A DNA stretch of 64,000 bases from Botryllus schlosseri (Eukaryota), in assembly GCA_051294905.1 (NCBI GenBank), contig CM119372.1, positions 19,532,001-19,596,000 of the forward strand, in the 5' to 3' direction. Below the pieces are notes generated by a model. That model was not told the origin of the DNA, searched no databases, and saw nothing but the letters and a program-made list of their open reading frames with translations. Below, in pieces: positions 1 to 25,219 of the stretch. Numbering within the stretch: the stretch's first letter is position 1; every line of letters begins with the position of its first letter. The translations under genes were made by a program, and so were the position numbers.

Positions 1-1796
1 TTAACGAATGATATTGGCATAATAACCGTGTGCCAGGATATATCTGAATATCACTGAATATATTTCGGAAGTGGCCATTTCTGACTGACCGCATAAGTCT
101 CCGATTCCGCGACCAAATCTACTTATTGAAACTCCTTGAGTACGTTTCATACCGTTCGTTTTCTACTTGTATGGAGTATCGACATTATTTCTACTCTGAA
201 AGTATTGAAACTACTCGAGTATTTTCCATGCCTTTTGTTTTCTACTTTCGCTTGAAGTAGTTTTGACAGGGTTTGGAAATTGCTACTGAATACAATTAGC
301 TGAGTGAGAATTTGTTGAATTAATTCTACTCAGTAGCAACACTGATTACTTCGACCACCTCTGCTACGAAGGCGCAATTGATTCTACTGCCCGACATGTC
401 CGCTTCCTTCAAAAATAAACTTAAAACGTTAGTTTCATTCTTGACAGAGCGACGGTTTGGAAGAAACACGATTGCTGGCCCGTCAGCACGCGACGGACGC
501 GCAAAGATACTTGGGAATTTTGGAAGATTCAGACGAAAAGGAAGCACTTTTTTCAATAGCCATGGCTCTCGTCGATCGAGTGAAATGAACGTGCTTTCGA
601 ATCGGGATATTGAGTTCAATATGCAAAGTCTTGAGCGTATGCGGGTTTCAAATAAATTTTGTACTATTCGAACAGGTTCGGTTTACTGACTCGTGTACTA
701 GCGCCAGAGGGAGTTTGTGACGAAGTACTTTTCGGACTACTTTTGTACTTCTGAACAGTTTTTTGGTCAAAATACCTTTTTACACTGGATTTGAAAATGC
801 GGAAAGTAGTTCAGGGATGAGTTTGCGTCACTTTTACCAGTGGAATATATTATAAGAACCACTTGATATTTTCGTAGTGGTGTGATCAGGTATTTTGCGT
901 CAGTGTCAAAGATGCATCCTGTAATTTCGGGAGTAGCCGCTTCCGATTGACTACTAAATGTATGTGACTCCTCGAGCAAATTTAGGTTTTCCAACTAGGC
1001 CTACTTCAGGGAGTGGTTTTCAAACCTTTCATTTTGTACTTCCACTTGAAATAGTATTGATGTGTCTTGGGAATTGCTACTTCTACTTTTAATTGAATAG
1101 AAATTTACGGTGTTATTGCAACTTGAGTAGCAACGACGACTGCATTGACCACGTCTCTGGTTAGCAAATGACACTTGTACCGGCTAATAATAAGGTAGAT
1201 TGCGCGTTACATTCCGCCGTATATAGCGTTAGTGGCTGAGGCTATTGTTGATTAGCGTCATTTGTCGGGTAGGGTTTCGCATGTTGGTTGTTCCGAGACA
1301 ATACAAGCTATGAATGGTGTGGTGGGCCTCGGTTGATAGCGATATATAATAACGCTAAATTACCATAACACGACCACTACTCAATTTTATCCCATTGGGG
1401 ATGTAGAGTGGTTTTCCAGCTGCCAGCCACTGTAGTTGAAATAGTGAGCGGCACTTGACCTTGTGGTAATTTGTAAATCATTGGCTGTCGGTTTCAAGTG
1501 GCATGAATGAGTGCGAATGTTAGCACTGAGGAGGTCGGTCCTTGCAATTCTGGTTACGACATGGTTTATAGCCTATATCCGGCAGGTCAGGTTTAGGTAT
1601 GAAACAATAGGCATAACTTCATATTCCTGTTATCCTTTTATAGATCGTAATTGTTTTGTCTCCAACTACTGAGTAGTCTAGCTTATAGCCATAATATCCA
1701 GCGAATTCCGTTGTACGATCGCAAGCCTATTCAATCCGTGGGCTAAATCGACTCGCACGGCCATTATACGTTCTTTGATGTTATTTTAGTCCTACA

Positions 1797-4700
1797 ATGG
1801 GCCTATTCAAAATTCTACAAGGAAAGGGGAAAGCTAAGAAGCCTCGAACTGAAAGCGTGGATAGAAATGGGTCGGCCAAACCGGAGAAACGTCAACATTC
1901 GTCCTCGGGTAACAATATAAGCCATTAAGCATAAGCACTGAGTGCAGTAAGGCTATATCTCTTTATGCGAGAAGTAGATAGGGTATTCCTAGTTAGCCTA
2001 ACTGTAGGCTAAGATAACGGAGAAAGCAAATACGAATGTGCCTGATTTATTTGCTTATTGTCCCGACCGTACGGTATATCGCTATCTGGTGTGGAAATGT
2101 AAACAATTTTGGGAACTGGCTTGTTCAGTTAGCTGTTGATAACCGACGAGCTTGAGTAATGTGCACACTGTTGTGTACTGTACAGTGTAGGCTACAAGGT
2201 ACACACGCATCGCAAGATCTCATTCCGCTGCTTATTCTCAGGGAACAGTAGGTCGACTGGGAGCAAAATGAAGAAGAAAACGAAGAAGTCACAAAAAGAA
2301 AACCAAAATTCCCAAGCGCGTGCTCCCAAAGATGTCTTTCCGAAGAAAAGCATTTCGTCACTAGCAAGATCGTTAAAAGGTGATGACTGGCAAAAACTGG
2401 CATCGGCTCTTGGATTTATGGAAATGGTGAGTCTACAATTGTTCTTGTTAACTACACCTGCTCAACCAAGTTACCCATGTAATTGTAGGCAATATCACAC
2501 TTCACTGGACGAGCAAGCTCCTCTCAAAATACGTATAGTCAGGCATGTCTCATGCTGAGAACGTGGAGGGATCAGATGCCCCTTGAAGAAATATTGCCGC
2601 GACTGACTGACGCCCTAAAACGAATTAGGCGACACGATTTGGCTTTGAAAATGGGATTGGAACTTGGAGTAATAGGTGAGGAGTTTGAGCACAATAACAT
2701 AAAATTAGTTCGTTATTTCGCTTGTGTGACTGTGGATTCTGGTTCTCGCTGGATGGGTCGAATACGTCAGAGCAGCCGAATGAGCCAATCCAAGTTTTGA
2801 CAATTTTCCCTTTTCTGAACTATTTGTCTGTCAGACCTCTGATCATTTATGAACTTTTACGGCAGGAATAGCAGGTAAACACAGCCCACTTGCTTTGTTA
2901 CATCCATGGTATCTTAGCTATCCATAGTCAAAATCGTATTCTTCTTGTCCTTTCGCTTGTAAATGCCCATATATAGCGAAGTCTCTGCGAAAATCGAATT
3001 CTCTTCCGTGATTTCGCTTTGCGAATGCCTAGCCGGGGCATGCCCCGGTAGCGCTCATAACAAGCTTTCACTGTCTATTCTCTCAAAGCCGCGCACAATA
3101 AAGAAACAGTGATTTACTCTCTCCTATTCGTAAAATGGCCGAGCAGGTGGGGCAACATAGCCTGGTCGCCCTTAAGGTGTGATGTAACAATCGTATCTAT
3201 ATCTGAACTCGGTTACCGTCATATGCGTTTAGTCGACCTTTGCTGGTATAGGTCGATTTTGATGGTGTTTCACACCATGATAATTCTTGAAACTTGGTAT
3301 GTCATGTCGTGATGGCGGTATGTAACACTGTCCCAAGTTTCAGGGTTTCTACTTGAAGTTTAGGGTAGTAATTCCGTTTCTGAAATTGAGTGTGTGCTGA
3401 TCCGTCATGTATCGCAAACAGATTTTACTCAAAAGTCGGTATTGGTATCCATTGATTTTGACGATGTTCCATACCGAGATCGGTCATGTCATTTGGTACG
3501 GTAAGTCTTAATGTTAGCATCGAACGCTGTACCAAGTTTCAAGTTTGTCAATGAACTGTGTTAGTGGTAATTTCGTTTCCTAAGTCGAGTGAGAGCTGAC
3601 TCGTCATTTATCGCAAACATATTTTACGCAAAGCCGGTATTGGTCTCCATTGATTTTAACGATGCTCCTTACCTAGATCCGTCATGAGCTTTTGCATGGT
3701 ATGTCTTGATTTTAGTATCGAACGCTGTGCCAAGTCTCAAGGTTGGCACTCAATCATTAGGGCAGCAATTTCGTTATCAATGTCGAGTATGGTAGAGATG
3801 TGCGCTGATCTGACACTTAGCCAACCTAACGCATTGCGGATTTCACGCAAAAGCCGCTGTATCTGTGTTAACGCTAACTGTGTTCCATACTGAGATAGGT
3901 GATGAGATGATGATATCATGAAACAGTTTACTAACATCCTCGGTTTGCATTCAAATATTTACTTTTATTTTATATTCTCCAATGTCAATTTCACCGTGAA
4001 ATTGAGGCCTTCAGGCCATTTGCTTACAATTACAACCCCTGTCAAGCGCGATAGGCCGATAGCTGTTTCGTTTTCGATGGCGGCTAACAGCTGATCGCTT
4101 AATCAGCCTATTCCTCAGTAAATTTTACGCAAAATTCGGTGTTGGTCTGTTCGTATTAATTTTGACAGTGTACCATACCGAAAACTGTCATGAGGCTACT
4201 TCTCGATGATTTCATGTAACAGTGTACCAAGTTTTCGGCTTTCATCCTCGTATTTATTCGGTAATATATTTTCCAAAGGTGATTTTGCAGCAGACATATA
4301 GACACTATAGACCGTAAGCCGTATGTGTCGTGTGACAGTCTCCAGCCTCAAGGCCAAAATTTCCTATGCTGTACCGGGACCGAATTTCCGAGGCTGCTAT
4401 CCGTAGTTCTTCAGAATTATGTTTTGGATTCAATATGACATGTCCAATCTATGAGATAACAATTGCGTATGTGTCCAAACTCGTTGACCTTTCCAGTTGG
4501 CTTACGCAATCTCTCGAGTTATAGTAATTTCCATTTCTGCAGATAATTAGTCAGGTATAGTGCGAACATGAACCGTGTCTATCAATACGCCGTTTACGCA
4601 GTTACCACACTTCAAGTCACAGCTCACCGGCAGACCTCTCGCGGCACATACGTTAAAATCAATGTTGTCGGGAAGTTCGTGTTACCGTACCACTAGTACC

Positions 4701-7700
4701 ACCAAGTTACTTGTTTACGTTGGAAAACGCCATTGTGACGTCATCTTGATAAAAAGTCGCTTGCAGCCCTTGCCCCACCACCCGATATTGTCACGAGCCG
4801 CCACTGGATGTTATACATCGATGATTCGATTCCGAATCCATCCAATATAGCCTCGAAAGGACCTTTAGGTTTTATGTTCCTGTATCGCAGTTCATATTGA
4901 AATTTATAATCGTTGTACAATGCATTGAGGAGTTACTGAAATAGTGTCTACTGTCCATATTTTCAGCCGCCAATGATTTCGACGAGCATGAAACAGAAGG
5001 AGTCCGCACCGACGCTAAAAGTATACTAAAAACACTCGAGTCTGATGACAGGTCGGAACCACCGTACTATGAAAGCAAACTTATCATCGGCGATGAAAAA
5101 ATAAGCTTCCTAGCAAGACAACTTTTAGCTCCAGAAGAATGGAAGCGATTGGCCTACGCGCTAGGATTTTTGCCACACGAGGTAGGTCAATATGTGTCAT
5201 GTGCAAAAGCGTGCAATACTTGTGAGAGATGCCTGAAATGTGTCAATATAACATCTCCCGGGGCCTACGATATTCGTAGGCCCCGCACCTTCGCCATTAA
5301 AGTTGAAAGTTATCGGCATCCTGCTGTTGTTAAATATAGTGTTTCCTTCATTCGGCCAGATATAAAAATAAATTTAACTGTAAAATATATTGAAATGTAT
5401 TGACGATCATCATTTGACCTTTCAATTGTGTGCGGTCATGCGGTCAACTGAAATATTTTTCGCACTCGGCGCGATCTACCTCAAATTCCAGCTTATTGCT
5501 CTGTACATAGTCCGAATTTCATATATGTGAATTGTCTCATCAACAGTCATAACCTTCCGTGCCATCAAACTATCCGTTAGGATTGCAAGAATTCTGGTTG
5601 CAGTTTGTGATATGACGATAAGGGGGCGCGAAATTTTTCACTATCATAAAGGGGGACGTGTATAAAAAAGTTTGAGAACCACTGACCTAAAGTATCAGAC
5701 AGCACGTCCACTCCGATTAATACAGGAGCGATGACGTGGTGGACAGGCCGATAAATATTGTCAGAAGTTGGCTGATCCTGATACTTCTGTGGATACAGAC
5801 ATCGTTCGGGCTTTCCATGTGTAGAGTAGTACACTGTACAGTGTACAGTGAACACACTGTATACATGTACAATTAACTATCGAAAGGTAGCCTAACTTAG
5901 GGTTGCCATACGTCCGGAATTTCCCGGACATGTCCGGAATTTCACTGTTCAAACTAGCGTCCGGGAGGAATTTCTAAAATATGCCAAATGTCCGGAATTT
6001 TGAAGACTTGACGTAGGCTCATAACTTTTTCGTAAATCAGCATATAAACAATATTTTTTGGGAATATTTATGCTGATGCATGATATTTTTCTTCGCGCTG
6101 CGCGCGATTTACCACCACATTTATTGATTTTAATATAGAGACTACCACCCTCGCAAAAACTGCAATAAAATATAAATAAAAACAACCTTCATTTACTGTA
6201 ATGTAATCGCAATTATAGGACAACGGTATATTTCTAAAGATCGTTAAGGCCGTTTAAATGCTCTATTAAAAGCTAGTGGTTCCAAACGGGGGGGGGGGGT
6301 CGTTTGCCTTTATTCTGGGGTTTGCGAATATGTTGAACGTCATCAGCTTCCAAAATAACTCGTGAGTAAGTCTGGGCAAAGGTGCTGCCTTCTTTCAGTG
6401 ATCAGCTCGTCAGATATTGATCTGGGCCACGGAACACTTTCAAATTGGAGATAGAGTCGCGACCACTAGATGTGGGATTTTTATAAAGCTCAGGGGTGCG
6501 CACCGGCAAGTTGCATGGATTACCTCATAGTGTGGGCTCAAAATCATTGTTTATTTGGGCGGGAGGGGGATGAAAACATGTGCTTTCGGTCCTGATTACA
6601 CAACACACAGCCACATACTTCTGAACCGAATCGTGACCACCTCTGGTCTATGAGCAAAGATTTGGTTGTTTGACGTCACAACTCATTTTGAAATCCACCA
6701 GTGGGCGCTAAAGAGTGTCCGGAATTTGGGTTGCTGAAATATGGTAACCCTAGCCTAACTCCTATTCTCTTTATAATATCACCAAAACCGTCCAACATAA
6801 ATGATGATGCATTGTAATTTTAGATAATGTATTGTACAATGCACAATGTACAATGTACATACATCCGCAAGGAACTAGGGGTTTGGGACGTATATTTCAT
6901 ATGTAATTATACAGGTTGCCTGTTGAAGGTGTAGACTAAATGACGATTATTGATTACGATACCCTGGCCTGTTCTAAGTGATTTGAATCAATAATCTAAT
7001 TTAAAATGTTACGTACCGTTCTGCGTTTGATCTTCCTCCAAATAATGACCGGAACTTACAAATTCAACCTTCCGATCAATCTACATGTGCTTGTGTTTTG
7101 ATAATGGATTTAAAATGGGTTCGTCAGGTCGCAGTATTTGTACGGATTGCTTTGCGAAATTATTTTGTTATCGCCTTGCGTTGATTGGATTCCGCCGTTG
7201 TTGATTTTCAGTTTGCCCATAATTAGCTGAACAAGTCCACAATTTTTTTAATCCCGACATGAAAGGAATTAGAGTAATAGATAGTCATAGAGAGTGGGCC
7301 TTCGCATATTAGAAGTCCTTCTGACGCTATTCAGCTATATTTTGCATTGGTATTGATTTCGATTTAGGTTTTGACTTAACGAACATGCCATTCCGGCTAT
7401 AAAGCAGCGAAATTTAACCTCCTCTCCCGACCTTGGCCTGCCAACTGCGCCTCTTACACAGAGTTGGTCAATAACAAAGTACTTCTACTTTTTTTCGAGT
7501 AGGCTACTCAAGGGGTTATGTTATACTTCTTCCAAGTATACTGAACAGTTTTGAAGCCAGAACATATACATATTTTTACTCTTTGTATTTTGTTTAGTAG
7601 AAAGTAGTTTCGGATATACTTGCATCACTTTTGCGTGTAAAACTGTCGTGACGACTGGCAGAAAGACCCCCAGTATCACAGTAACTGAATTTATTTTCGA

Positions 7701-8298
7701 AAATTACACTCATATTTGTACTGTCGTTGGTCATTTTGCGATAGTCGCGAATACCCATCTTTCTATTTCGCAAGTGGCCACCTTCGATTAGCTGTCAAAA
7801 TTATGCGACTCATCGACCAGAACTACATTTCGAAAACACTTGAGCTTGAGTACTTTTCATATCTCTCATTTCCTACTTCTACTTGAAGTAGTTTTGAAAT
7901 CGCTATTTCTACTTGTAATTGAGTTAACATTTCGGTGTTACTTCTACTTGGGTAGCAACGCTGAGTACTTTGATCACCTCCACATCGTCACGACTGCGAA
8001 TTCGCAGGTATCCCAGATCATCGCGTCCGCCAGCAGTTCGCAAAATCTCTACTCTCAAGCACACGTGATGCTCAAAAGATGGCGGCTTCGCACTCATCCG
8101 AACCAGATCATCCCCCGTCTGAAGGCCGGCTTCGTCAGGATTCGCCGACACGACCTGGTGGACCTTCTCAAGATTGGCGCAATCGCCGGGACAGAAGATA
8201 TCTTGCACTTGATCGAGGAACAGCTTCGTGAGAGCAGAGAGCCGCAAGACAGCTTCGGCGCGTCGCTGACGAAAAACTTTTCTGCGTTTCAGCAATAA
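1797..8298 (+). CDS. Tandem death-domain protein, 329 aa; exons 1797-1908, 2242-2426, 2489-2675, 4967-5181, 8008-8298
   Basis: All introns are GT-AG with matching phases (1,0,1,0), and the total of 990 nt is an open frame. Two homologous repeats have the death-domain pattern: DDWQKLASALGF...YSQACLMLRTW...LTDALKRIRRHDLA and EEWKRLAYALGF...YSQAHVMLKRW...LKAGFVRIRRHDLV. The stop TAA overlaps an AATAAA. Confidence 0.85.
3240..4280. repeat. Degenerate tandem repeat, about 198-199 bp unit (about 4-5 copies), in intron 3 of the death-domain gene
   Basis: The motif CCAAGT(T/C)T recurs at 3333, 3532, 3730 and 4227. ATTTTAC(T/G)CAAA..GTATTGGT recurs near 3422, 3620, 3840 and 4122. Boundaries are approximate. 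Confidence 0.7.
5898..6752 (+). mobile_element. Non-autonomous hAT-type element, family C (copy 1)
   Basis: Termini are TAGGGTTGCCATA...TATGGTAACCCTA with a perfect 8-bp TSD GCCTAACT. It is homologous to 26693-27777 and 28463-29569. Confidence 0.9.
7457..7981. repeat. Representative copy of an old, abundant MITE-like family (CAGAGGTGGTC-like ends, AAGTAG/CTACTT-rich); other copies near 60-362, 700-1160, 15700-15890, 16870-17306, 48770-49060, 51350-51700, 52520-53100, 58998-59500, 62050-62310, 62780-63010
   Basis: Shared motifs include CTACTTGAAGTAGTTTT, GGAATTGCTACTTC and GTGGCCACCTTCGAT, with GACCACCTCTG-like ends. Copies are heavily diverged and boundaries are approximate. Confidence 0.65.
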
Positions 8299-9965
8299 AC
8301 TTTCGTGTGCTTGTGCATAGTATGCTTGAAAACATTGTATATATGCTTTCTCAATCTTTTAAAATCTACTCCGTATTTGCTGAAAATTACGACAATCGCG
8401 GTCCTTACTCGAATTCTCAACGGTGTGACTGGCAGATTGATTGATTTTATCACAAATTTCATTCAGCATGAACCGTCAAGTCAGCGCAACACCACGCGTA
8501 ACTATACGCAGCAGGCACGAATGAAGGAGACAAGTGACACGTGATTGTCATCAATGTAGTCAAATGCGACCTATTATGACAGTATAGGTAAACAGACGAC
8601 TTCAAAGGCGATAGGCAATAGGCTCAATTACACTTCTGAAAATACAACAAAGGAAAAGAGAGCAATAAACTAAAACGGAAAAACTTGTGCATCATAATTC
8701 TATAGGGAATGCTGATTTTATCGGCTTTATAACTAATCCTAGATAGGTACGTCATACTGCTGTTCATTGCACTTCTTCAATAGTACGTCGAATTACAGAA
8801 ATGTGGTGAAGGATTCATGACTTTCATTTATGCATGAATCGAATGAAGCTCACCGGATACCGGATGTACCATAGTGATATACATTGTATATCTCATAATG
8901 AGACTCGATAATGCATTCGTGCAATCTTAGAGCTATAGTAGTGTCGTCACACGCGGTTTCGTATCAATCCTTATTGTTCCTGCTGCTTCGAGGTGTCGTT
9001 GTCATGGCCTATCCACGCAGGCAGCTTATTTAGCGCTTGAGCTGAGCATACGGAAATAGTTCCTTCGTGAAGAGCGTCCTTCGATACACAAGTTCCCTCT
9101 GGTCTCAGTGGGATCGGGTCAGCGTATGGTTAGAATACGCAGTTTCCTGTAGTCGCTTGGACTATAACGGTTCGATAACGCGTGCGATTTCGTGTTAATA
9201 ACTAAATTAAAGGCCATGTGGCCGCGTCCGCGTGGATGCTCCGCATACGTTCAAATATTGTAAGTTACTACAAATGAGCGAGTATACGTAAGCGATAATT
9301 TGCGCGCCACTTTGACAACGGTAGCACGAGCAAAAGAAGTATAGGTTAGCAATAAGCATATTATGATAATATTATGTAATATATGTACTGATATATATGT
9401 ATTCTACAGAGAGCTTTAATAAATTTTAATCGATTCCTTACTGGCGCTAGTAAATTTATAGTATAGCTCGTATAACATCCATACTGTTTGCCATATTGGG
9501 TTTCGATGATATATTTTGACAAGCTCATTCCTGAACAGTGAACACATCCGCACAACGTATCGTAAATTCAGGAAATTGCATGTACTGCCGCATCTAACTA
9601 TAGATCAGTACCACTATCTCTCGGTATTACATGGTGTTAGATTAATACTACCAATTGTACCAATGGCTCTGTTGATGGATGATGAAAATTGGTGCAGTAT
9701 TTAGGTTGTTGAGGGGAAGTTATTACGTATACTACCGATTTTGAAAAGTGGATGTTGAAATTGAAATGAACTTACCCAATCGAAGTAGGTGGTAGGCTAT
9801 ATGGTGTCTAATTGCTTCATATTTTACAGTTACTAGGAAGAGATAATAAGTAACATCTGTATTGATGAAAGACGGCATTTGGGAATCAAAGAAATCTTGC
9901 CAGAGCTAGGTGCGTAGTGGATACGCTGTCTAAGCAGAGACGCCTTCGGCTGTGGTATACGTATC

Positions 9966-12900
9966 ATGAAGCATTATCAACCAACTTTTTCTGTGAGATG
10001 GATCATAGTATCTATGGTACTTTTTTGTTGTCAATGCAGCGGGGAATTTTATGACGAGGATCAAGTATGGGACCAGCTTGATCTCGGTAACCAGCCTGCA
10101 AACGACGAATACTTCACTTCTGCATCGAGTATTTCTATTTACCACGACTTTTTAAGAGACATTATCGAAGATCATAACGGAGGTATGAATATCAATTTCC
10201 AAGATGAGATTGCACTATTATGTATATTGTATATATGACAGTAAACGGAATCTGCATGGAGTAAATGCATGGTAGTTGGACAGCTGAAGATGAATTTCGC
10301 GGTCGTGTTGTGATGAGCACGTTCGACCAACTTCCCTTTATCTAGCATTGTGCAAGCAGCCAATATCTAACTCCCACGTACATCTGATTCGATTACCTGA
10401 TTAATTTCATCATAGGGTCTGACTTTTGATCAGGCAAAGGTTAGCGGAAACCTGTCCAGTGTCCATGAACCGTCAGATACAATAGTATACACAGAACAAT
10501 AGTATGGATTTATACAAAAACAGATAGAAGTACACGCATGCCTTAAACATGTTGATGACATCTGTCAAAGCGATAATGCACGGACATTGACGTTCCATTT
10601 GCCATCAAATATTTACCAATTCCCGAATAGGCACGATTATCTGAATTTTCAAGCATCTTCTGCAAACAAAACACAGTATGCGTCGATTGATTTTCCTCGT
10701 TATTCGTCATAATCAGCATGAATAATTATTGTATGGGTCTGTTGCTCTGTACAACTAATTACACTAATCGATTACAGGAGACATTCTGGAGAAACAAGTA
10801 CCCTATTCGTACGCTTACCGATGGAGGATGAATAATTATGCAAGAAGTGAGTATATCAGTTGAGTGTGCGCACTACTCTAATGGGCTTTCATAGTGACTT
10901 TGATTGATCAAACTGAGATGACGATTTTGTACTGTTCCTTTGCGTCTACCGAAGATCTATCAATATCATAGCCCAATGAAAAAGACTGACATATAAACTC
11001 ACTGGATTCTATCTTCATTACGTACTCGCAGGGCACCCTTACCCTTTTATACAATTTTCCGGGAATATTGTATGTTTCTCACTTGTCAGAGTGTGCATGT
11101 GCATGTGCAGGCTCATCTCATTGTGAGCTCTGTGGCACTGGTGGTGTGTTTAGGAAGTATCAATGCGCGGCAGAGGAAGTTTATCGCATGTTTTGATGCA
11201 ACAAGCCATGTGCATGTGTACATGTATAAAATAATTTCTGCTTCCTGGGGGTTATTGCGTGACCAATTGACCATTCGTGTAAGTGACATACCTTCAGACC
11301 CTCGTGGCCACGTTTGGGACCTGTTCGACCGAACGGAATTTATCTTCGGGATAGGTATGACAGGTATTGTCAGTAGTACTTCGTGATGAGATGATATTGT
11401 GAGATCTCACAGTAGACTCATATACGCGAAAATGTAATGTTTGTTATGTTGGAGACCCAGTCTTGTAGGAAGGGCTGTCATTTGATCGTTTTCACGGCGA
11501 ACTTATAAAAATCAGGCCGTTTTTTTTCGATGACGTCAGGTAAACCAGTTATACTTGAATATAACGTTTCCCGGCAACCACTCTCGCGTTATACAATGTC
11601 ATTAACAAAATTTGAGGTATCGAATCGAAAATGCATTACAAGAAGTATTTGCTGTGATTGTTTCTGAGCCAGCGTTTTGCGACATACTGAAATCTTTTGC
11701 TGCTAAGTTAGCTCTGCCGAGCGATCTTATGTTAGCTCCGTGTTGGTCTTTACTGCTGGTAACGAACACAAACACGATTTCCAGAATACATAGAGCATGT
11801 AATAATCCCGTGGTGCAATTTCACAGCGCCAACGGTGTGACACTACTGAATTTTTTATTCTGCGAGTAATTCAAGCTTCATCACCGCGACTGGTGAATTT
11901 TCGCATCATCGTGTCAACTTGCAAAATACAAACCACCATAGAGCACATTTGTCGCGTGTAGTGTCGGGAGGACAAAAGCTATTCGCTTGACCATTCCAAT
12001 GAATATTTAGCTAGGCTCTTCCTCGCCATCCGACCCGCACATGCGGTGTCTTACAAAAAGCCAAGGACGAAAGAATATTGGAATGGTGTAAATTGTAGTT
12101 GAAACTCCAGGAATACCAAAACAACAATATCAACAGCAATTCCACTATATGATTATATGATTACATAAAAATTCGATTTGCACGTAACTATACGCCGAGT
12201 CTATATTCCCTCGAGACCTGCTTTCTGCTTTATGCTATCGGCAAAAGCCCATTACGGGATCAAGGAAATGCTGTTTATATAATCTGCGGGACTGTCTGAA
12301 ATCTTCCCGTCCGAATCAGCACATCATGGTAAACATATCGTCATAAATAATTGATGCGTGACGTGTCATATCAACTCCCCTTGCATCAGAGATTTGGATT
12401 TAATGAAAGCGGATTTGATGATTTTGGTCGGATTCGGATCGGATATGACATTTATCATAATCATAGTTTTAACTTTTTCATGCGGCTGTTGCGACATATT
12501 CCACCCATTACCCGAGTTGGACAGAATACGGAATTAATATAGTATTGGAATTTGAATCTTAAAACAGGAATATGATATGGATTTGAAAACACTAAATCTA
12601 GCCATCTCTTCCTTGCATGCACATTATGCAGCTTCCCATGAGTCGAATGTCACGAAATAGAACCGCCTCCATTCAGTTAACCTGAATGCATGTCTAATGA
12701 AAGAAATAATCTCAATAAGCCGAGATATGCCATTCCTCTCTGAATTAATTATCTCTTCAGACAGATTGAAAGTGTCAAAGTTTCTTCGGTATTATCAGCG
12801 TTTGTTGCATTTGTGGAGAAGAAAATGCGCTCTTGCCGAATGGGCAAAGGAAACAAATTTGACAAAGCACAATATAGCTGTGTCAAAACAAGTAAGATTG

Positions 12901-15900
12901 ATTTCACATTACCCATCACTGCTTATAAGAGGAGAAGAAACTAGTCGGTGAGATGAAATTTTTCTACGCATTTTATTCAGAACACGCTACAGTTCTCAAA
13001 ATGGGTTGAAAAGCAACGGAAAGAAGCGAATAAGTTCAGCAGAGCCGGCCTCACGTATACGCAAAAGCGAATGCTAAAGCTAATCTTGGAGTCTTCCGCA
13101 TTGAAAGAGGCTATTCTAAGAAAGTGAGGAGAAAACCTATTATACTCCTACAATAGATACAGTTGAAAATGCAAATGCGTAGTCCACTGGTGGGAAACAG
13201 TCCGCCGTGTAAGAGGATGCCGTCAAAATGAAATATAATATGTTGTAGCCAACTTGGTTTCAATGTCATCATATCAAAAGGAGCATTGCAAGCAGTGGAT
13301 CCCCGACTCGTAACTCCTGTGTTGTGCAGGGTGTATAGGTTCACTTAGGTTGGCTATGCGTTCTTAGAGGTATGGTCATTAACGTAAGTTAAGTACTCAA
13401 GTTAACTACGTCTACTTTTATTCTTAGGACTCAAGTAGGCGTTGCCTACCGTACTATACTTATTAGACGGGTTATACGTTTAGACCATTCCACCATCTAC
13501 CGAAAAGTAGAAAATAGTTTATTGTAGGTTTTGCGTGAACTTGCACACAACCTGTTGAGAAACTATTACAACTATATAGAAGTATGTAGGTTTTCAAATC
13601 TTTGATATATGATTATTATTGCATTTTTCCATGGTCTAATTTACCTCGTCGGTATTCGCAGGAAACTTGTTGGTTTGGAATCACAGATCAGTACAGTCTA
13701 CAGCAAAGCCACTGTATGCAAACTCGGAAAGTGCTACCATTTTGAGCCGGGATTGATCAAAATAATGCGGACATCACGCGATTACGAGTGAGTATCCATC
13801 ATGTCCTGCTTCCTGGGATAGCCAGTAAGGTTCATCAACAGCTTGACTTCACGAATTCAATCCCAGCGAGTTACTGTGGGCTTGGAAAGGTTGGAGAGAT
13901 GCGATCGGACCGAAGACCAGAAAGGACTGGACCGCGGCGGAAATTCTACGAAACAAAGGCGCACGAGAGAACGGTTAGTTCCTTCGAGATTGTGAAGTAA
14001 ATTGGAAGATTCGAAGAAATGTCAAACTATACTAGAAGATTGCCCCGAATAGATAAATCTTTTGTAGGGGAACGAGAATTTACAACAATGGATACACACC
14101 ACGATTCCAATCCCGTAATATTTTAAAAATTAGTCCGTGATGACATCTTATGAGCAAACATATGGAAAAGATACACTCTGCCAATTCATATACGCTTGTA
14201 TTGTTCTGTGGAATGTTGGATTAAAATCACATAGATAGGTTTAGGTATAGTACAGTGGTTCTCAACCATTTTGTCTTCGAAGAGCTTCTTGGAGGTACAG
14301 AACTTCAATATACAATTAAATAGTATATTCATATTGAAATGAACCCGAATATTTTCGGCTGACACTCGTCAGGGGTAATCTACTAGTTGCTGACGATTAC
14401 CCCTGACGAGTGTCAGCCGAAAATATTCGGGTTCATTTCAATATGAATATACTATTTAATTGTACATTTTGTCTTCGTAAAATAAGTTTTGGGTCGAGTT
14501 TAGCTCAGTCATCGTGCAACCGTCATCGTGCATTGAGCAAATAGTATCAGAGGCTAGTGATAAACAGCAACAATTTGACTTTTCCTGGAAATAGTATCAT
14601 ACTATGTGAAAATTGTGGAGACTTTCATTATTTAGAGCAAATTTTGCAGCTATGTCTCTTAAAATGCGTGTTCGTGTCTTGAAAATCCGCGCGTTCCATT
14701 TTATATAAACGAGAGGCCATAAAGATAGGTGGAGCAAATAGAATAATAGCGTGCAACGCTAACGACGACACCTTTATATATGATCGCAACATCTTCGGCC
14801 CTAGAACAGTTCTGGCAGAACTAAGAAACAGATTTTGTATCGAGCACATCCCGTCCAGCCTAATCATTACTATCCGCAGCGGAAGACTTCTAGGATAGTA
14901 TATCACTGGAGAAAAGAGATTCCGTGCTGTGGTTTCAATCCCTTTGGAACAGATTAAACAAAATTGTATATTTGTGTATTGTTGAATGTATATTTCAACC
15001 GACTGTTCACTTATGTTCTGAGACTGACCACTTCAAATCGGAAATATTTTGCAAACATTGCGAAGTTACCGAGATTATGAGTTTGCATAGTATGGGTTAT
15101 TTATTCTCAGACGGCTGTTCTGTTAATGTGAGTCATGAAGGTTTAGCAGCTAAGCCTAAGAATCGAAACTGCCTTAGACTGCCCTTTCCCTAACTTAGAA
15201 AATTAAAAATTAGGTTATCAATCGTGTTGTAAATTTAGAGGCTTTGCGGACCCCCTGAAAATGCTTCGCGGCTCCCGGGGGTCTGCGGACCCCCGGTTGA
15301 CAACCACTGGTATAGTATGAACTCGAGATACTTCGATAAAACGAATGTCATTCTAAATAACACAATGAAATAAATAGAAGTATAGAAGTAACGCCGTAAA
15401 TGTCTACACAATTACAAGTCTAGCGATGCTCAAGACGTCAAAACGTCTTCCAGTGTAAGTAGAAAATGTGGGGTCTGAAATCTTCTCAAGTAAGAAGTTT
15501 CAATATGTTGATTGTCGAGGGGTCGCGCACGCGTAGTAGTTAATCGGAGTTGGCTATACTTACGGAATTGCGAGATGCATCTATGCGACTAACGCAAATG
15601 ACTAACGAGTACAATCATGTAAAATATATTCAGTTAACTGAATAAACGGGATGTTTCCTACGGTTCTTATGATATATTTCACTCATAAATGTGACGCAAA
15701 CTCATCGCAATACTACTTCTACTTTTCAAAATCCAACGTTTAATAAGTATGGAATTCTGCTTGAAGTACTTCCAGGCGAAGTGGAAGTGGTCTAAATCTA
15801 AAGCATCACTTGAATATAAGTAGTGCAAGTAGGCAAAACATACTTGAGTACTGCGACTAAATAGAACTATTCGTTAAGAACCAGTGACACCCAGTGACAC

Positions 15901-18900
15901 CCCGGAATATGCATAATCGTAATCATATGGTAAACTTAATATCCAGCCAATTTATCCGCAAAACACATTCACTCTGAAAGCAATGTCTCGCCGATATCGA
16001 TTTATCTTCCAGAACGACCAAGTGCACGGGCCATTTGATGCGGAATGACAACGCAAAAGCAGATTGACGGTTTATGGCCCTTATATATCAATGATTCAAT
16101 AATTTACTAACGTTTTTAGGTTACGCCGACATCGGAGATTACCTGAGATCCACATACGAGACCCCGGATTTCGAAAAAGATATTGATGAGTTGTGGGACT
16201 CTTTAGAGCCGTATTATAAGGAGCTGCACGCCTATATTAGACGGAAACTCCATCATGTGTACGGGAACAGGGTTTCATTGACAGGGCCGATGCCTGCTCA
16301 CATACTAAGTAATCCTAATCTTCGAATATTAGCAATTCATGTTGTGTGCGATATGGGAATCAATTTCCCCATTTAAGGTGATATGTGGGCGATGAAATGG
16401 GACGGTATCAGAAAGATAGCAGAGCCCTATCCAGATGTCCCAGGATTTGCTGTGACGGAGGGAATGCGCAAAAAGAACATGACGGTCAATCAGATGTTCA
16501 AACTGGCCGATGAATTTTACCGTTCCCTCGGTAAGCAGTTTTTTACACACGGTTTCCATTTTCTTTATGGTTTAAAATCGATAATTTTACTAAAAAGCCT
16601 ATAGAAGTGGGTCGTGCTGCAAGTCGGCAGATGCTGGATTATAATTAAGTCGGTGTGGTGTAAATGACCATTGTAGTCGTAAAACATCATGAATACTACA
16701 AAACGACAACTTCCGTGTAGTTGAGAGTTAGAGATAGACGCTATTTGTCGGTTCATATTGCTGTAATTTTGTCGTGATATCCATCGGCCGCAAAATATCG
16801 ACTGCGCGTGGAAACGTATAGTGGGCTAATCAATGAACGTATAGTGGCCGAATATCGTATTTTAAATGAACATCTAATGAACATAGTTTAGGAAAATACT
16901 ACTCACGCCTTACAATTTGTAAAGTACAAAGTAGTTTTTGGGTATATGTTTGCTTCAACTCTCTGTGTGAAATTGCCGGGAATATTGAACTTTACTGCAC
17001 AACTGGGCGAAATAGCCTCTGTATCACGATATCTGAATTTCTTATTGAATACTTCACCCATTTCTAAAACACATTTGGCGTTTGACCTCAGTTGCTCAGA
17101 TGCACTTTGGAATTTCAGAAGTAGAAACCTCTCATTACTTGTTAAAAGTGCTCGACCTCATAACAAAAAACATTTTTGAACTACTTACTTGAGTTGTTTA
17201 TAGACCATTCTTTTTCTACTTTCACTTCAAGTAGCTTTAACTTGTCTTGGGAATTGCTACTTCCACTTTTTATTTGAGCAGATATTTATACCTTCGCGAC
17301 CACTAGAGAACAGGGAAACTGTAGGATTTATCCAACTACCTAACCAACCTGATATGGAGATGACTAATTGTAACTATAAGTACTTTGTTACCGAAATATA
17401 TGCTCTTCGGTAGTGCCCATCTCCACGTCTTCACACCAAATCAGTCCCATGCTCTACTAATGGAATTTTAACCTATTTCAGGCCTACCCAAGATGACGCC
17501 AGAATTTTGGCAAAATAGCATGTTCACGAGACCGAAGGACAATAGGTCGGTTGTTTGCTACGCGTCGGCACACAACTTGGAAGGCGATGATGTCAGGTAT
17601 CGCGATTACCAGACAGCAACCCAATTCCGCTTCAATCAATTTCAAATAACCGTTTCAGGGTTAAGATGTGTGCGGCGGTTACCGGCGAATACCTTTATGT
17701 AGTTCACCATGAGATGGGACACTGTCAATACTACCTTGCGTACAACAGGCATCAACCGGAAATATTCCAGGCAAGTCACCAGTCGACTTGGGTGCATATG
17801 TGTAGCTAGATATCTGTTGGTTGCAAAGTGACATAACGTGACGATCTGCAGCCAGTCTAACACGGCACACATATAGCCCAGATCTCGTTAATTCTTCTCA
17901 AGATTGATAGACCGCACCTGGTCGTTTCGAGATCTTTTCGTGATATCGCATTCAGTGGCGTAGTTAGAAAAATAGAAAGAGAGAACATGTTTTATGAGTT
18001 CAAGAGAACTCCCCCCTTGAGCCCCCAATAGGGTGAGCATCGAGAAACCCAACATATTGGGGCTTGGGGCATCGTCCTTCATACTCTCATAATTCTACGG
18101 GGAATTCCATCACCGATCTTTATATTTCCGTAGCGAAAAAAGTGTGGCATTACGCGATTCACGAACGATTTGGATTTGCTAACAGAGGACGCAAGACTTT
18201 TCTGTTTGTATGCCTATATCAGCTTACTACGCACCAAAGTTGGCGTGCATTAATTTCGTAGACACGCGAAGAATTTTGCAGATTTTCGTACTGAAATGTA
18301 ATTGATTGTATTGATGCGAAAATATCAGTCTTTGAATTTTTTGTTATAGAATTCTGAGTATAATTGTAATCGCAGACTGAAATCCAAAATGTCCGTACAG
18401 GGACATAAAGGGATACAAGGATATATATCCCTGGGTCCTTACCACAACGTAAAACCCGCCAAGAAATTATTCCAACTCTGGTCGTATGTAAAGCAGTGTT
18501 GGGATCAAGTCACTACCTTCGAGTCACGAGTCATTTCGAGTCATTGCACATTTTGACTCGAGTCAAGTCAAGTCAATCGATTTTCGAAGGTGACTCGAGT
18601 CAAGTCAAGTCACTCGTTTTTTGCAGGTGACTCGAGTCAAGTCGAGTCAAGTCAAGTCACGAGTCAGGTCACAATTCAAGTCAATTAAATTGGTTTTTCG
18701 AAGAATGAGTGATGATTCAAAGTCATTACATTTTGCTAGATTTGTGAAAGGCGGATGTATTGGTCATATATCTTGCATTAATAACGAGTATAAAGTCTAA
18801 TATACATGCCAAAGGGCGTTGTATCGCTCACGCAGACGTAGAGCAGCAAATAAAATACTTGAGGCAAAATAGAGGATCGAATACGAAGCGTCGAGAAGTT

Positions 18901-21900
18901 GAAACATTATTGATATGGTAATACACTACCCATCTACACAGTGGCGTATCCAGGGGGGGTTTTAGGGGGTCGGAACCCCCCCCCTTTTCAAAATCCTAAA
19001 AATTGATGTAAAATATAGCCTCTAGTATTTGCTAATTTATTAGTTTAACATATTCGTTTTTACGTATGAGAAGGCGAATATGGCGTGTTAATGTTATTTA
19101 AGGGGACTAAAACCCCTAGCAAATCTTGGAATCATGCGCCGAATTAGTCGAAAGGATAAAATAGGTCGTTATATTTCGCTAATTCCATACGAATTCTGCG
19201 CTTGTTAAGCTACATTTCAGCAGTAGTTGCTGACGTTCTCAACTTTCTTCCCTCGATTTCTCTCTCGCCTTGCTAAAACGAGAGACGCATTTTAGGAAAA
19301 TCTAATCTAATTGGCCGACGCGATACGTAATTGCAAAGACGAAGTTGACGGCAATCAACATCGCCCGCGAATTCGCTGCGCCTGCTCGCCTCGAAATCCT
19401 AATTAAGAATTGCACGGCGTGTTGATTGATCAGCGAGACGCAGACACGGCGGCACCGGTACGACAATGCTATTCTCAAATCCACATTTTCTTCGCGATTA
19501 TTGGCGAGAAATAGTCTACGATTGACATTCACATTTCAAAATACAAGCCTAGCAATCCACGTTCCCGATTATTAGGTGGCTTGCTGGCGTCCAAATACAG
19601 GCCTGTGATGTCGCTGAACGGGAGAATTGAGTAGGCCTAGTAGTAAAGTCAACCTAATTATATCGGCTGACTAGTTTCTCTGTCGATCAATTTATTATTA
19701 TCCCAGTGTGTACTCTGTATTAATTATATATATATATCGTCTTTCAATTAAATAAACGGGAAACAAACGAACATCAAGATAATGAGTTTTCGGCCCTTAT
19801 TAACTGACTGACTTGCGTATTTGCAATTAAAGTCGAATTACCTTCGCGCGTACTACACGCTCAGCCGTCAGGCTAGTAAAGCCATCGAAAAGCACACATT
19901 CGTGTACGACGTACACTGTTCACACCTCTCCCGACCTCTCTGTGGCGATTGCGATCGCCCTCGTTTATGCTACCGCCTTATTCCGCGCTTGTTCGTCCGC
20001 TGCGATACTACCGACCGTGCGCATAATATCGTCAAAACCCAACAAAATCGCGCATCTCTGGCCGGAACTAGGCGCTTGGAGACGGGCGGCGTTTGCTGGC
20101 TCATGACTAAATGTGAGCAATTACGAATTTCTTTCAATCATACCGTAAAAGAAACGCGATTTTCAGGCATGTCTGTATCGTATTCGTACGTCTCCCACTC
20201 ACCGCAAATCTCTTTTTATTATTAAACTATACAATATCGTAAATATTCGCCATGGCGTGGAGACGAGTAATTGTAATGATGACGTCATAATAGCCTATTT
20301 CGTAACGCACCTTACGAATACAAAACAAAATCAACCAACAGAAAGATATACTTGGACCGATCACCACTGCAGCACTGACGCAAATAAGACGAAATTTTCT
20401 AGAATTAACCTAAAACGATTATGCTCCGTAATTTTCATCCAAGTTTAATTTACAGTCAATATTATGATCAAATGCTTCTGTAACACTATGTTTCATGATG
20501 ATTTTAGTTCGCAAAAAGTTTATGAAACGTCTCTTTATTTTCAATTAGCCTATACGAAAGATGCCTTTCCAAAGATTGAAACAACATTGACGAGAATATA
20601 ATAGGCATGCTTGCATTTAATGAAGACATTCTTTCAAGATTGTGCTGGATGCAATGTCTTGTTACGTTCAATAGTATGATGAACTATATGTGTTTGCCTT
20701 ATGTAGTTTTCATGATGATGTTAAATCTTACATTGTGTAAGAAACGCCTCTTCTTGATTTCAAATAAACGAAAGATGCCTATTTCGTAACGCAAAACCCC
20801 CCCCTTTTTCGCGCTCTGGATACGCGCCTGCATCTACACATCCGTGAGAATATAAACGCATAAACTACATTCGTTCCATTCAATTCATACAAGGAGGTCG
20901 GCTAAGGTGGGCACTGCGCGATGTAACCCGTCCAAGAAACAGAGATACGTTTGCTATTAGATTATACTTCTGATTTCACATAAACGTAAGCTGTCATCAG
21001 TTCGTTTTCGATCAATTTATTTGTGATGTAACAAGGGGTGCCACTGAAAGGTACAATCAGTGAATGACTGGTTGCTCTCACAAGTGACACATGCGTATCG
21101 CGAATAATCCGAACATAAAAAAGAGACAGATATTTAATTGACACCGTTTACTTGATGACTTGAAATTGACTCGTAAATTTTGCTCCGAGTCACGAGTCAA
21201 TCCACATTTCTGAAGCGCCGAGTCAAGTCAAGTCAAGTCATTTTTTCAAAGTGACTCGAGTCAAGTCAAGTCATACGAAAAAGTTGACTCGAGTCTGACT
21301 CGAGTCAAGTCATGACTCGAGTCATCCCAACACTGATGTAAAGGCACTCTTTGCCTAGCTGTGTCCTGCCTATTCACCTGTAATTATCTCCAATGATCAC
21401 AATTGCTCGTATAATTCAGTCGGGCGCCAACCATGGTTTTCACGAAGCGATCGGTGACACGGCTGCACTGTCCGTTATATCACCGACTCATCTGCAGAAG
21501 CTGGGCATTCTTACTCGTTCCGACGGCGATGCTGCTTTACAAGACAGTACGCTTTCTATTTACTCGTCCGATTTAGCGCTACCAATCCAAATCCGATAAC
21601 CGAAATCAATCTATTGCGATTCAGGGCAAGATATGAATTTTTTGATGCAAAAAGCCCTTGCGAAGCTGGTCTTTTTCCCGTATGCGATCACGATGGCGAA
21701 GTGGTCATGGGATGTCGCGCGCGGAGTTATACCTTACGACCAGATGAATGCCGGCTGGTGGCGCTACAGGTATATCCGTATATAGGGAGGCTTGCGTTGA
21801 GTATGGATTTTACTGGAATGACCATCACCATTTATACTATCATTTTCATCAGTTAAAAACACCACAAGATTGCGACGCAGTGAAAAAATAATAGGACTTA

Positions 21901-24488: not shown

Positions 24489-25219
24489 ATCGCTTGCTGT
24501 CACTGCTCAACGGGAATGAAACGCATATTCAGGAGACAATAGCTTTATAAGTACTGAAAGCCCCGACCAATCATTGGTGGTCTTCGTAGGTTTACACGGT
24601 TGTCTGTAGTGTACAGTGCACCGATTAAACACAGGGGATATTTTAGCAGTGTGATATTGGTTGCATTTGCGTGTGTCACATGCCAGAGATCTGCTCGGTA
24701 ATTGCAATGCATTACGGAAACCAATGCTGTGTTGCCTGATAGTATGCGGGTCGTTACTGTATCGCTTGTTGTTAGGATATCTTGAGATCAAACGACTGGG
24801 ATGAAAGTCGGAAGCGCGCACGCTCCCAGCGGTACTTGGTAGGCTACCAAAGGAATTTATATTGTCATCAGGAGTGATGATCAGATTACCGAGACGCCCG
24901 AGAGAATCGAGGCTATGCGTGAGACAATTACGCAATGCGCATGGCTTGTGGCTTTCGTGTAACTCCAGTTAAAGGCAAAATGATGAGTGGTATTCTTTTA
25001 ATCAGGGCCGTAACTGCCGAACCCCAAACCCCCCAATTGGGGGGGGGGCGAGCTCGAAGGAGGCCCAAAATTATTTCGTCAATTAGCATAAATTATAGAG
25101 TATTTTTTGAAATTTTAGGCAACTTTATCCAAAATTATCCGCGATTTCAAGTTGCCAAGTATCTTGAATATTGGGTACTCTTCCCACAAAAAAAAATACG
25201 CAAGATTTATAGAAATGGG

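What the first reader, a model, noticed from the sequence alone, without database searches (positions are those of the whole stretch)
1797..8298. Small adaptor made only of a polybasic MG- N-terminus plus two tandem death domains
Seen: the 329-aa spliced protein is MGLFKILQGKGKAKKPR...MKKKTKKSQK (very basic, low complexity), then DD1, an acidic linker (DFDEHETE...ESDD), DD2 and a short tail. I see no TIR, DED, CARD, kinase, ankyrin or TM segment. Known: MyD88, FADD, TRADD and CRADD each pair one DD with a different domain. Inference: this may be a lineage-specific, membrane-tethered DD-DD scaffold or decoy in innate immunity or cell death. Gly2 plus a basic patch suggests myristoylation or electrostatic anchoring, although position 6 is not the favoured Ser.
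Basis: partly seen in the sequence, partly recalled or inferred. Interest (0 to 1): 0.7.

Follow-up and report, generated by a model that had tools for sequence, protein, structure and literature searches.

The report
Sea-squirt twin death-domain protein
This is a real sea-squirt gene for a small, slowly evolving protein made of little more than two death domains and a positively charged end; it probably acts as a membrane-associated connector in cell-death or immune signalling, but what it binds is not known.

Summary
Five GT-AG exons give a 329-aa protein: a basic N-terminus, DD1, an acidic linker, DD2 and a short tail. It belongs to a conserved family. Named orthologues are Styela clava (86-87% identical in the DDs), Ciona and Clavelina; unnamed relatives share 46-60%. 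All are 255-364 aa, and no fused form was found. One relative has in-frame stops before its ATG, so the '3' end of a longer gene' reading is very unlikely. Folds of two orthologues match death domains (best Z 14.2, FADD DD). The two DDs look like an ancient duplication of one two-exon module. Myristoylation is only partly supported: 3 of 11 members have an N-terminal MG, and Styela has MD. A basic patch at one end is commoner (8 of 11). DD-only tandem proteins also occur elsewhere among the hits, so the architecture is not unique. Best reading: a membrane-associated DD scaffold (0.45). Bold reading: it supplies the membrane DD that Ciona's three TNF receptors reportedly lack (0.1). The scan's earlier notes held no look-alike.

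The parts
1783..1789 (+). 3' splice-acceptor-like site (T-rich, AG at 1788-1789) 7 nt before the ATG: a 5'-UTR intron or an SL trans-splice acceptor (inferred)
   Evidence: Sequence. The in-frame TGA at 1776 lies upstream of the AG, so it does not by itself exclude an upstream exon. About half of Ciona genes are SL trans-spliced (PMC4691747, passages).
1797..1908 (+). Coding exon 1, aa 1-37: Met-Gly start, basic, predicted disordered; donor phase 1
   Evidence: colinear with the Styela N-terminus, which has Asp at position 2
2242..2426 (+). Exon 2, aa 38-99: Lys-rich patch (aa 45-56, 2262-2297, net +7; Met47 at 2268 is a possible second start) and first half of DD1 (from 2334); donor phase 0
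   Evidence: P0074 begins at the Met47-equivalent
2489..2675 (+). Exon 3, aa 100-161: second half of DD1 (to about 2662); donor phase 1
   Evidence: Pfam Death E 5.2e-5; tblastn of Styela 86% identical
4967..5181 (+). Exon 4, aa 162-233: acidic linker and first half of DD2 (from about 5086); donor phase 0
   Evidence: same length (215 nt) and phases in locus L002
8008..8298 (+). Exon 5, aa 234-329: second half of DD2 (to about 8175), C-terminal tail, stop TAA
   Evidence: Pfam Death E 1.7e-4; 73% identical to Styela
8294..9423 (+). Candidate polyadenylation hexamers at 8294, 8664, 9206 and 9418 (3' UTR region; end not determined)
   Evidence: Pattern scan; use not shown

Best explanation
A conserved tunicate gene for a cytosolic, stand-alone tandem death-domain (DD-DD) adaptor. 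Shown: gene structure, two six-helix DDs and no other domain, strong conservation of both DDs, and a basic patch at one end of most members. Inferred: (1) the pair arose once, by internal duplication of a two-exon phase 1-0-1 module, before the sampled lineages split; (2) the basic end, helped in some species by an N-terminal myristate, holds the protein at an anionic membrane; (3) from there DD1 and DD2, which have kept distinct conserved surfaces, bind DDs of fixed partners (FADD-, MyD88/IRAK-, RIPK- or PIDD/CRADD-type proteins, or each other) and so seed or bridge a DD assembly, like a receptor tail without a receptor. The protein has no catalytic or effector domain, so its output must come through partners.
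For: Death fold: best VIA matches FADD DD Z 14.2 (rmsd 2.1, 99 aligned), PIDDosome chain Z 13.9, ankyrin-G DD Z 12.9 for the Styela model; same order for the P0074 model. DD identity to the window: Styela 87/86%, Ciona 65/75%, Clavelina 60/65%, four unnamed 46-60%, against 1-15% for N-termini outside Styela. 21 and 20 invariant columns in DD1 and DD2 across 11 sequences, including a polar ASS-x-x-N-x-x-x-Q segment. Two close copies from another species differ by 10 synonymous and 1 non-synonymous codons in 133. All 22 family DDs form one clade among 61 other DDs (SH-aLRT 90, quick tree), DD1 a clade at 99. Intron phases 1,0,1,0 are conserved in L002-L004. 8 of 11 members have a 12-residue window of net +6 or more at one end; the two with an acidic N-terminus (P0003, P0004) have a basic C-tail (net +12) ending in Cys. 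Ciona carries MGANKSK after short, version-dependent extensions; Clavelina starts MGASKNS. Lipid plus polybasic patch is a known membrane anchor (PMC10940682, passages). Ascidians have DD partners: FADD-like and caspase-8/10 (PMC10923776), MyD88 and IRAK (PMC5465252).
Against: No partner, localisation or expression was shown. Gly2 is present in only 3 of 11 members; the closest named orthologue has Asp2, and the window has Ile at position 6, where Ser or another small residue is usually favoured (consensus recalled). P0074 starts at the Met47-equivalent, so a form without the MG segment may exist, or its contig is 5'-partial. Three members (P0006, P0007, P0069) have no window of +6 at either end. 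Lys-rich runs can equally be nuclear localisation signals. The closest solved sequences are p75NTR and ankyrin DDs at weak E-values (0.006-0.1), and ankyrin DDs are not apoptotic adaptors (recalled). The neighbouring genes are not immune genes. The tree is a short search on 86 columns, and the family node is below the starred level.
Confidence: 0.45

Rival explanations
1. Non-death structural or housekeeping scaffold: the DDs serve as interaction modules in cilia, cortex or nucleus, as in ankyrins, THOC1/p84, the DD chain of the sperm central apparatus or ctenophore CTENO189. The Lys-rich patch is then a nuclear or ciliary targeting signal or a microtubule-binding segment.
For: Slow, family-wide conservation suits a housekeeping role. 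Highest sequence identity among the structural hits is the ankyrin-G DD (30%). p84 DD (Z 11.8) and a chain of the mouse sperm central apparatus (9ijj_4Y, Z 9.9-10.2) are among the matches. CTENO189, a comb-plate structural protein, has two DDs (10.1101/2022.03.27.486007, passage).
Against: FADD and PIDDosome DDs score higher by Z than these, though fold rank does not show function. No ZU5, UPA or ankyrin parts. MG starts in three ascidian lineages point to membranes rather than the nucleus.
Confidence: 0.27
2. Dominant-negative DD-only decoy, the DD counterpart of cFLIP-S/vFLIP (tandem DED only) or of CARD-only and pyrin-only proteins: it caps or sequesters DD assemblies at the membrane and damps apoptosis or NF-kB signalling.
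For: Only death folds and no effector domain. The P0074 model has pTM 0.58 with about two-thirds of the chain ordered, which hints at a packed DD1-DD2 unit. Both DDs are net basic in most members.
Against: The Styela model has pTM 0.36, so the packing is not reproduced. Known decoys usually arise from, and resemble, their target (recalled); this family shows no close resemblance to any named signalling DD among 53 HMM hits or PDB sequences.
Confidence: 0.2
3. The five exons are the 3' part of a longer gene (ankyrin-, UNC5-, NLR- or receptor-like) whose upstream exons splice to the acceptor at 1790.
For: An acceptor-like AG lies 7 nt before the ATG with an open frame behind it. Only 1.8 kb of upstream DNA is in the window, and no RNA of this species was laid.
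Against: Three named orthologues are 347-364 aa and start at about the same place. The intronless contig L001 has in-frame stops before the ATG of P0003. A search of 169-2000-aa proteins with exon 5 gave 4 hits, all 306-361 aa (weak by the tool's own note). Of 53 HMM hits in 1.84 billion representatives, 30 are family (longest 357 aa), and the other 23 match only at generic DD level.
Confidence: 0.04

Closest known systems
Uncharacterised ascidian proteins LOC120342653 (Styela clava, XP_039267509), LOC104266515 (Ciona intestinalis, XP_009861214) and LOC143470213 (Clavelina lepadiformis)
   Same: Orthologues: same two-DD layout, same size, 60-87% DD identity. Databases already tag them with Pfam Death.
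   Different: Named only 'uncharacterized' or 'Death domain-containing'. N-termini differ: Styela MD-, Ciona and Clavelina MG-.
DD adaptors FADD, TRADD, CRADD/RAIDD, MyD88
   Same: Small cytosolic proteins with a six-helix DD; FADD DD is the best structural match (Z 14.2).
   Different: Each pairs one DD with a DED, TRADD-N, CARD or TIR domain (recalled); here the second domain is a duplicate DD. Sequence identity to FADD DD is about 15%.
Tandem death-fold-only regulators cFLIP-S, vFLIP MC159 and RIG-I 2CARD
   Same: Two death folds in tandem, with no catalytic part in the FLIP short forms.
   Different: Those are DEDs or CARDs with short linkers; here both are DDs (Pfam Death, no DED hit; Z about 8-9 against 12-14), joined by a 44-57-aa low-confidence linker.
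p75NTR (TNFRSF16) and ankyrin death domains
   Same: The closest solved sequences: the DD1 part of the profile matches p75NTR, the DD2 part ankyrin-2/3 (E 0.006-0.1).
   Different: The matches are weak. There is no TM segment, cysteine-rich domain, ankyrin repeat or ZU5.
Osteoprotegerin, CTENO189 and echinoderm multi-DD proteins
   Same: Tandem DDs: OPG has two DD-homologous regions and a heparin-binding tail (PMC4202272, passage); CTENO189 has two C-terminal DDs; starfish proteins carry 3-10 DDs; unnamed P0053 (199 aa) is two DDs only.
   Different: OPG is secreted and has cysteine-rich domains. The others are long or multi-domain, or group apart from this family in the tree, so the tandem arrangement arose separately.

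Membership tests
Death domain (DD) subfamily of the death-fold superfamily | Six-helix death fold | tested here: met
   AF2 models of two orthologues (P0001, P0074) show two helical bundles at block pLDDT about 83-93. DD1 matches FADD DD at Z 14.2, rmsd 2.1, 99 aligned. DD2 was barely tested on its own by VIA. The window's own spliced protein was not folded.
Death domain (DD) subfamily of the death-fold superfamily | Pfam PF00531 above the gathering score | tested here: met
   Styela orthologue 68.1 bits, two stretches. Window exon 3 alone 23.7 bits against 22.6; exon 5 alone 22.1.
Death domain (DD) subfamily of the death-fold superfamily | Homotypic DD-DD binding to a partner | not testable with these tools
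   No partner is known; needs pull-down or two-hybrid work.
FADD / TRADD / CRADD / MyD88 adaptors | A second, different domain (DED, TRADD-N, CARD or TIR) | tested here: not met
   Only Death passes its cut-off in P0001-P0004 at E<=1 and in P0005-P0007, P0015-P0017 at E<=0.001.
cFLIP-S / vFLIP tandem-DED proteins | Both folds are DEDs (Pfam DED) | tested here: not met
   No PF01335 hit at E<=1 in 4 of 4 orthologues; DED structures rank below DDs (Z 7-9 against 12-14).
Death receptors, p75NTR, osteoprotegerin | Signal peptide or TM segment, and cysteine-rich domains | tested here: not met
   Maximum KD19 1.15; no TNFR family hit.
Ankyrin / UNC5 / PIDD (ZU5-UPA-DD) proteins | ZU5, UPA or ankyrin repeats upstream of the DD in a long chain | tested here: not met
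   None in the orthologues; no long family member found; in-frame stops upstream in L001.
N-myristoylated membrane proteins | Gly2 with a permissive context, conserved in orthologues | tested here: inconclusive
   Gly2 is in the window, Clavelina and (after a short model extension) Ciona: 3 of 11. Styela has Asp2; seven unnamed members have none. The position-6 preference is recalled.
N-myristoylated membrane proteins | Myristate actually attached, and membrane binding | not testable with these tools
   Needs labelling and G2A localisation.

The most novel reading that the evidence does not exclude
The protein is a detached death-receptor tail. Tunicates lost DD-bearing TNF receptors (Ciona 3 TNFRs, none with a DD, against 4 of 10 in amphioxus and 3 of 13 in sea urchin; PMC4979521 Table 1) yet keep FADD and a caspase-8/10 that works in tail regression (PMC10923776). 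A lipid- or charge-anchored twin DD, whose DD1 is closest in sequence to p75NTR's, could supply the membrane DD seed that recruits FADD downstream of DD-less receptors: a split death receptor. Against it: the p75NTR match is weak (E 0.02-0.1), no binding is shown, and one preprint says death receptors like p75NTR and EDAR have been reported in tunicates (10.1101/2021.12.26.474206, passage).
Probability: 0.1. Interest if true: 0.8.

Novelty: new variant of a known kind. Interest (0 to 1): 0.45.

Why it matters
[quoted passage not shown] A tractable, strongly conserved DD-only protein with a Ciona orthologue gives a direct candidate to knock out and pull down. Even if it is structural, it is an undescribed family that shows how a duplicated two-exon module became fixed, with its basic end apparently moving from N- to C-terminus in one lineage. 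The architecture itself is only modestly unusual, since invertebrates have many tandem-DD proteins.

Tried and rejected
No whole genome is held for this window, so paralogues and upstream exons beyond the window could not be searched. Sequencing runs: no RNA holder listed; no reads could be laid, so nothing is concluded on expression or junctions from them. Complex prediction of three copies of the Styela DD1-DD2 region: no answer, score 0.00, alignment not used; no evidence either way. ESM Atlas: only generic Death clusters at 0.87-0.90, no structure search. Foldseek PDB: no match at E<=0.001, though the top rows are all DDs. Viral structure library: nothing at E<=0.001. VIA found no convincing two-domain match to RIG-I 2CARD or tandem DEDs; absence is not exclusion. 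The third homologue search, with a 10-sequence profile, added no new member. No exon 1 could be found in the about 1.1 kb upstream of exon 2 in L004/L005, so their N-termini are unknown. The upstream frame 327-686 has no Pfam hit and sits between dispersed repeats: rejected as an exon. A sub-threshold Pfam hit on exon 2 (Binary_toxB_2, E 0.059, 13.5 against 25 bits) is noise. Supplements of the Ciona cilia proteome paper PMC4427456 hold no 'death' or gene-number match in 4 files; uninformative, since the gene may be listed under another identifier. The supplement of PMC10923776 (Ciona TNFR and FADD list) could not be read and bears on the novel case. Literature searches for the six accession or locus names and for 'tandem death domains' plus Ciona gave 0 papers; the broader searches listed none on this family by title or abstract start. 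The careful tree did not finish; the quick tree is quoted. A PPY motif before DD2 in ascidians was considered as a WW-binding site and given little weight, as a full PPxY is in only some members. The RxDL-like motif suggested DEDs (recalled) but Pfam and structure favour DD.
Full report
Observation. Reading the window and joining exons by coordinates gives five exons: 1797-1908, 2242-2426, 2489-2675, 4967-5181 and 8008-8298. All introns are GT-AG, with phases 1, 0, 1, 0, and the product is 329 aa with one stop. The first 69 residues are net +15, the linker is net -7, and there is no hydrophobic segment (maximum KD19 1.15). Each DD is split by an intron, yet single exons still hit Pfam Death: exon 3 at E 5.2e-5, exon 5 at E 1.7e-4 and exon 2 at E 0.1; 3 of the 5 exons hit, exons 1 and 4 did not. 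The two halves of the protein align to each other (BLOSUM62 score 181).

Orthologues. Exon 5 found Styela clava LOC120342653 (347 aa), Ciona intestinalis LOC104266515 (361 aa) and two unnamed proteins. The Styela protein added Clavelina lepadiformis LOC143470213 (357 aa) and two more unnamed proteins. The window is therefore an ascidian, closest to Styela among the named species; an earlier scan note on the same genome also calls it a sea squirt. DD1/DD2 identity to the window is 87/86% for Styela, 65/75% for Ciona, 60/65% for Clavelina and 46-60% for P0003, P0004, P0006 and P0007. The N-terminus is 41% identical in Styela and 1-15% elsewhere. A profile search of 1.84 billion representatives gave 53 hits. 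By identity to the window, 30 are family (5 long forms of 222-357 aa and 25 single-exon fragments) and 23 are other DD proteins, at most 36% identical over 65 or more residues. Of those 23, the four that carried a name were starfish multi-DD proteins (five were looked up there and two more). No named family member lies outside ascidians. The unnamed members come from metagenome and Logan assemblies; that they are tunicates is inferred, not shown.

Is it stand-alone? An AG acceptor lies 7 nt before the ATG, and the in-frame TGA at 1776 is upstream of it, so the window alone cannot exclude an upstream coding exon. Four points argue against one. The three named orthologues start at about the same place. 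The intronless contig L001 has in-frame stops before the ATG of P0003. A search of 169-2000-aa proteins returned 4 hits, all 306-361 aa (weak evidence by the tool's note). No long family member appeared in the profile search. About half of Ciona genes are SL trans-spliced (PMC4691747, passages), which offers an ordinary reason for an acceptor just before the ATG. P0074, an unnamed continuous protein 85% identical to the model (240 of 283), spans junctions 2-3, 3-4 and 4-5 and begins at the Met47-equivalent; it may be 5'-partial or a shorter form. No RNA reads were laid, so exon 1 and expression remain unconfirmed in this species.

Fold. AlphaFold2 on the Styela orthologue (7 sequences) gives two helical bundles at high confidence, with a low-confidence N-terminus, linker and tail (pTM 0.36). 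P0074 (11 sequences) gives the same with pTM 0.58, a hint, not reproduced, that the two domains pack. VIA ranks FADD DD first (Z 14.2, rmsd 2.1, 99 aligned), then a PIDDosome chain (13.9) and ankyrin-G DD (12.9); CARDs reach about 11, PYDs 10 and DEDs 9 (same order). These rows mostly test DD1. Foldseek had no match at E<=0.001, but its top rows are DDs. By sequence, the nearest solved domains are p75NTR (DD1 side) and ankyrin-2/3 (DD2 side) at E 0.006-0.1. Pfam finds no DED, CARD, TIR, kinase, ankyrin or ZU5. The window's own spliced protein was not folded.

Origin of the pair. Exons 2+3 and exons 4+5 each begin in phase 1 and are cut by a phase-0 intron just after the conserved LG[FL] turn: three residues after it in DD1 and four in DD2. 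Loci L002-L005 from another species keep all four phases, and exon 4 has the same length, 215 nt. Genomic fragments of the distant subgroup break at the same places (P0037, P0041, P0051). In a quick tree of 22 family DDs and 61 other DDs, the family is one clade (SH-aLRT 90, below the starred level) and DD1 a clade at 99 (86 columns, careful search unfinished). The simplest reading is one internal duplication of a two-exon module before these lineages split. Constraint is strong: 21 and 20 invariant columns across 11 sequences, and 10 synonymous against 1 non-synonymous difference between L002 and L003 over 133 codons.

Membrane tether. Of 11 members scored (Ciona counted once; P0074 not included), 3 have MG near the start: the window, Clavelina and Ciona. 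The two Ciona models carry different short extensions before the same MGANKSK, which looks like the true start (inference). Styela aligns at the start but has Asp2. The window has Ile at position 6, a poorer context by the recalled consensus. A 12-residue window of net +6 or more lies before DD1 in 6 of 11 members. P0003 and P0004 instead have an acidic N-terminus and a basic C-tail (net +12) ending in Cys; they are 88% identical, so this is one event. P0006, P0007 and P0069 have no such patch. A charged end is thus better conserved than a myristoylation site. It fits membrane binding (PMC10940682, passages) but also nuclear or ciliary targeting.

How it most likely works. With no effector domain, the protein must act through DD contacts. 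The best reading (0.45) is a membrane-associated scaffold whose two DDs bind fixed partners and seed or bridge a DD assembly. Ascidians have candidates: a FADD-like protein and caspase-8/10 (PMC10923776, passages) and MyD88 and IRAK (PMC5465252, passages). Rivals are a structural or nuclear role (0.27; ankyrin, p84 and a sperm central-apparatus chain are among the fold matches, and CTENO189 has two DDs), a DD-only decoy (0.2), and a fragment of a longer gene (0.04). The neighbours, an ACE-like peptidase and a PEA3-type ETS gene, do not help.

Bold reading. Ciona is listed with 3 TNF receptors and none with a DD (PMC4979521, Table 1), and a 2007 paper reports no DD-bearing death receptor in ascidians (PMC1903365, passages). 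Yet caspase-8/10 works in tail regression. This family could be the missing membrane DD. A preprint states that death receptors like p75NTR and EDAR have been found in tunicates (10.1101/2021.12.26.474206, passage), the p75NTR similarity is weak, and no binding is shown; probability 0.1.

Novelty. The orthologues are in RefSeq as uncharacterised proteins with a Pfam Death tag. Searches for their names and for 'tandem death domains' with Ciona found 0 papers, and six broader searches (listings only) showed none on this family; most subscription papers, including the 2003 Ciona cell-death survey, are outside the library. PMC11463336 and PMC6394757 were read in passages and added nothing specific. 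Tandem DDs are known in OPG (PMC4202272, passage) and CTENO189, and DD-only pairs occur among the other hits (P0053). The scan's own notes held no look-alike by sequence or place. Verdict: a real, apparently undescribed tunicate family; a new variant of a known kind of DD adaptor; interest 0.45.

Noticed in passing
window 46-362, 776-1155 and 7546-7980; further copies near 15400-15750, 17190-17290, 48780-48900, 52550-52980, 59220-59420, 62130-62210: A dispersed repeat family, 68-83% alike, on both strands; one copy ends just before the exon 5 acceptor.
   Followed up: partly
window 3233-3753: Three tandem copies at a spacing of about 199 bp in intron 3, with partial copies to about 4230.
   Followed up: no
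window about 5899-6751: A stretch of about 850 bp in intron 4 whose ends look like terminal inverted repeats (read by eye); possibly a non-autonomous transposon.
   Followed up: no
window about 9970-24490 (+): ACE-like peptidase M2 gene downstream: Pfam PF01401 on 24129-24485. The frame from 9972 looks like its signal-peptide exon but had no Pfam hit.
   Followed up: partly
window 53134-53571 (+), with likely upstream exons near 41939-42925 and 50951-51270: PEA3-group ETS gene: the end of the ETS domain matches ETV4/ETV5/ETV1 structures at E about 1e-8.
   Followed up: partly
L001:48-968 (P0003) and P0004: In this subgroup the N-terminus is acidic and the basic patch sits at the C-terminus, ending in Cys-Cys or Cys-Ser; possibly a different lipid anchor (not a canonical CaaX).
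   Followed up: partly
window 2426/2489 and 5181/8008: The phase-0 introns in DD1 and DD2 sit one codon apart in the domain alignment, and this offset recurs in other species: a possible old intron slide.
   Followed up: partly
P0006, P0007, P0015, P0016, P0037, P0041: A distant unnamed subgroup with its own conserved linker motif (TTRT/V-N/H-H-V/I); it could be a second paralogue or the orthologue of a fast-evolving pelagic lineage.
   Followed up: no
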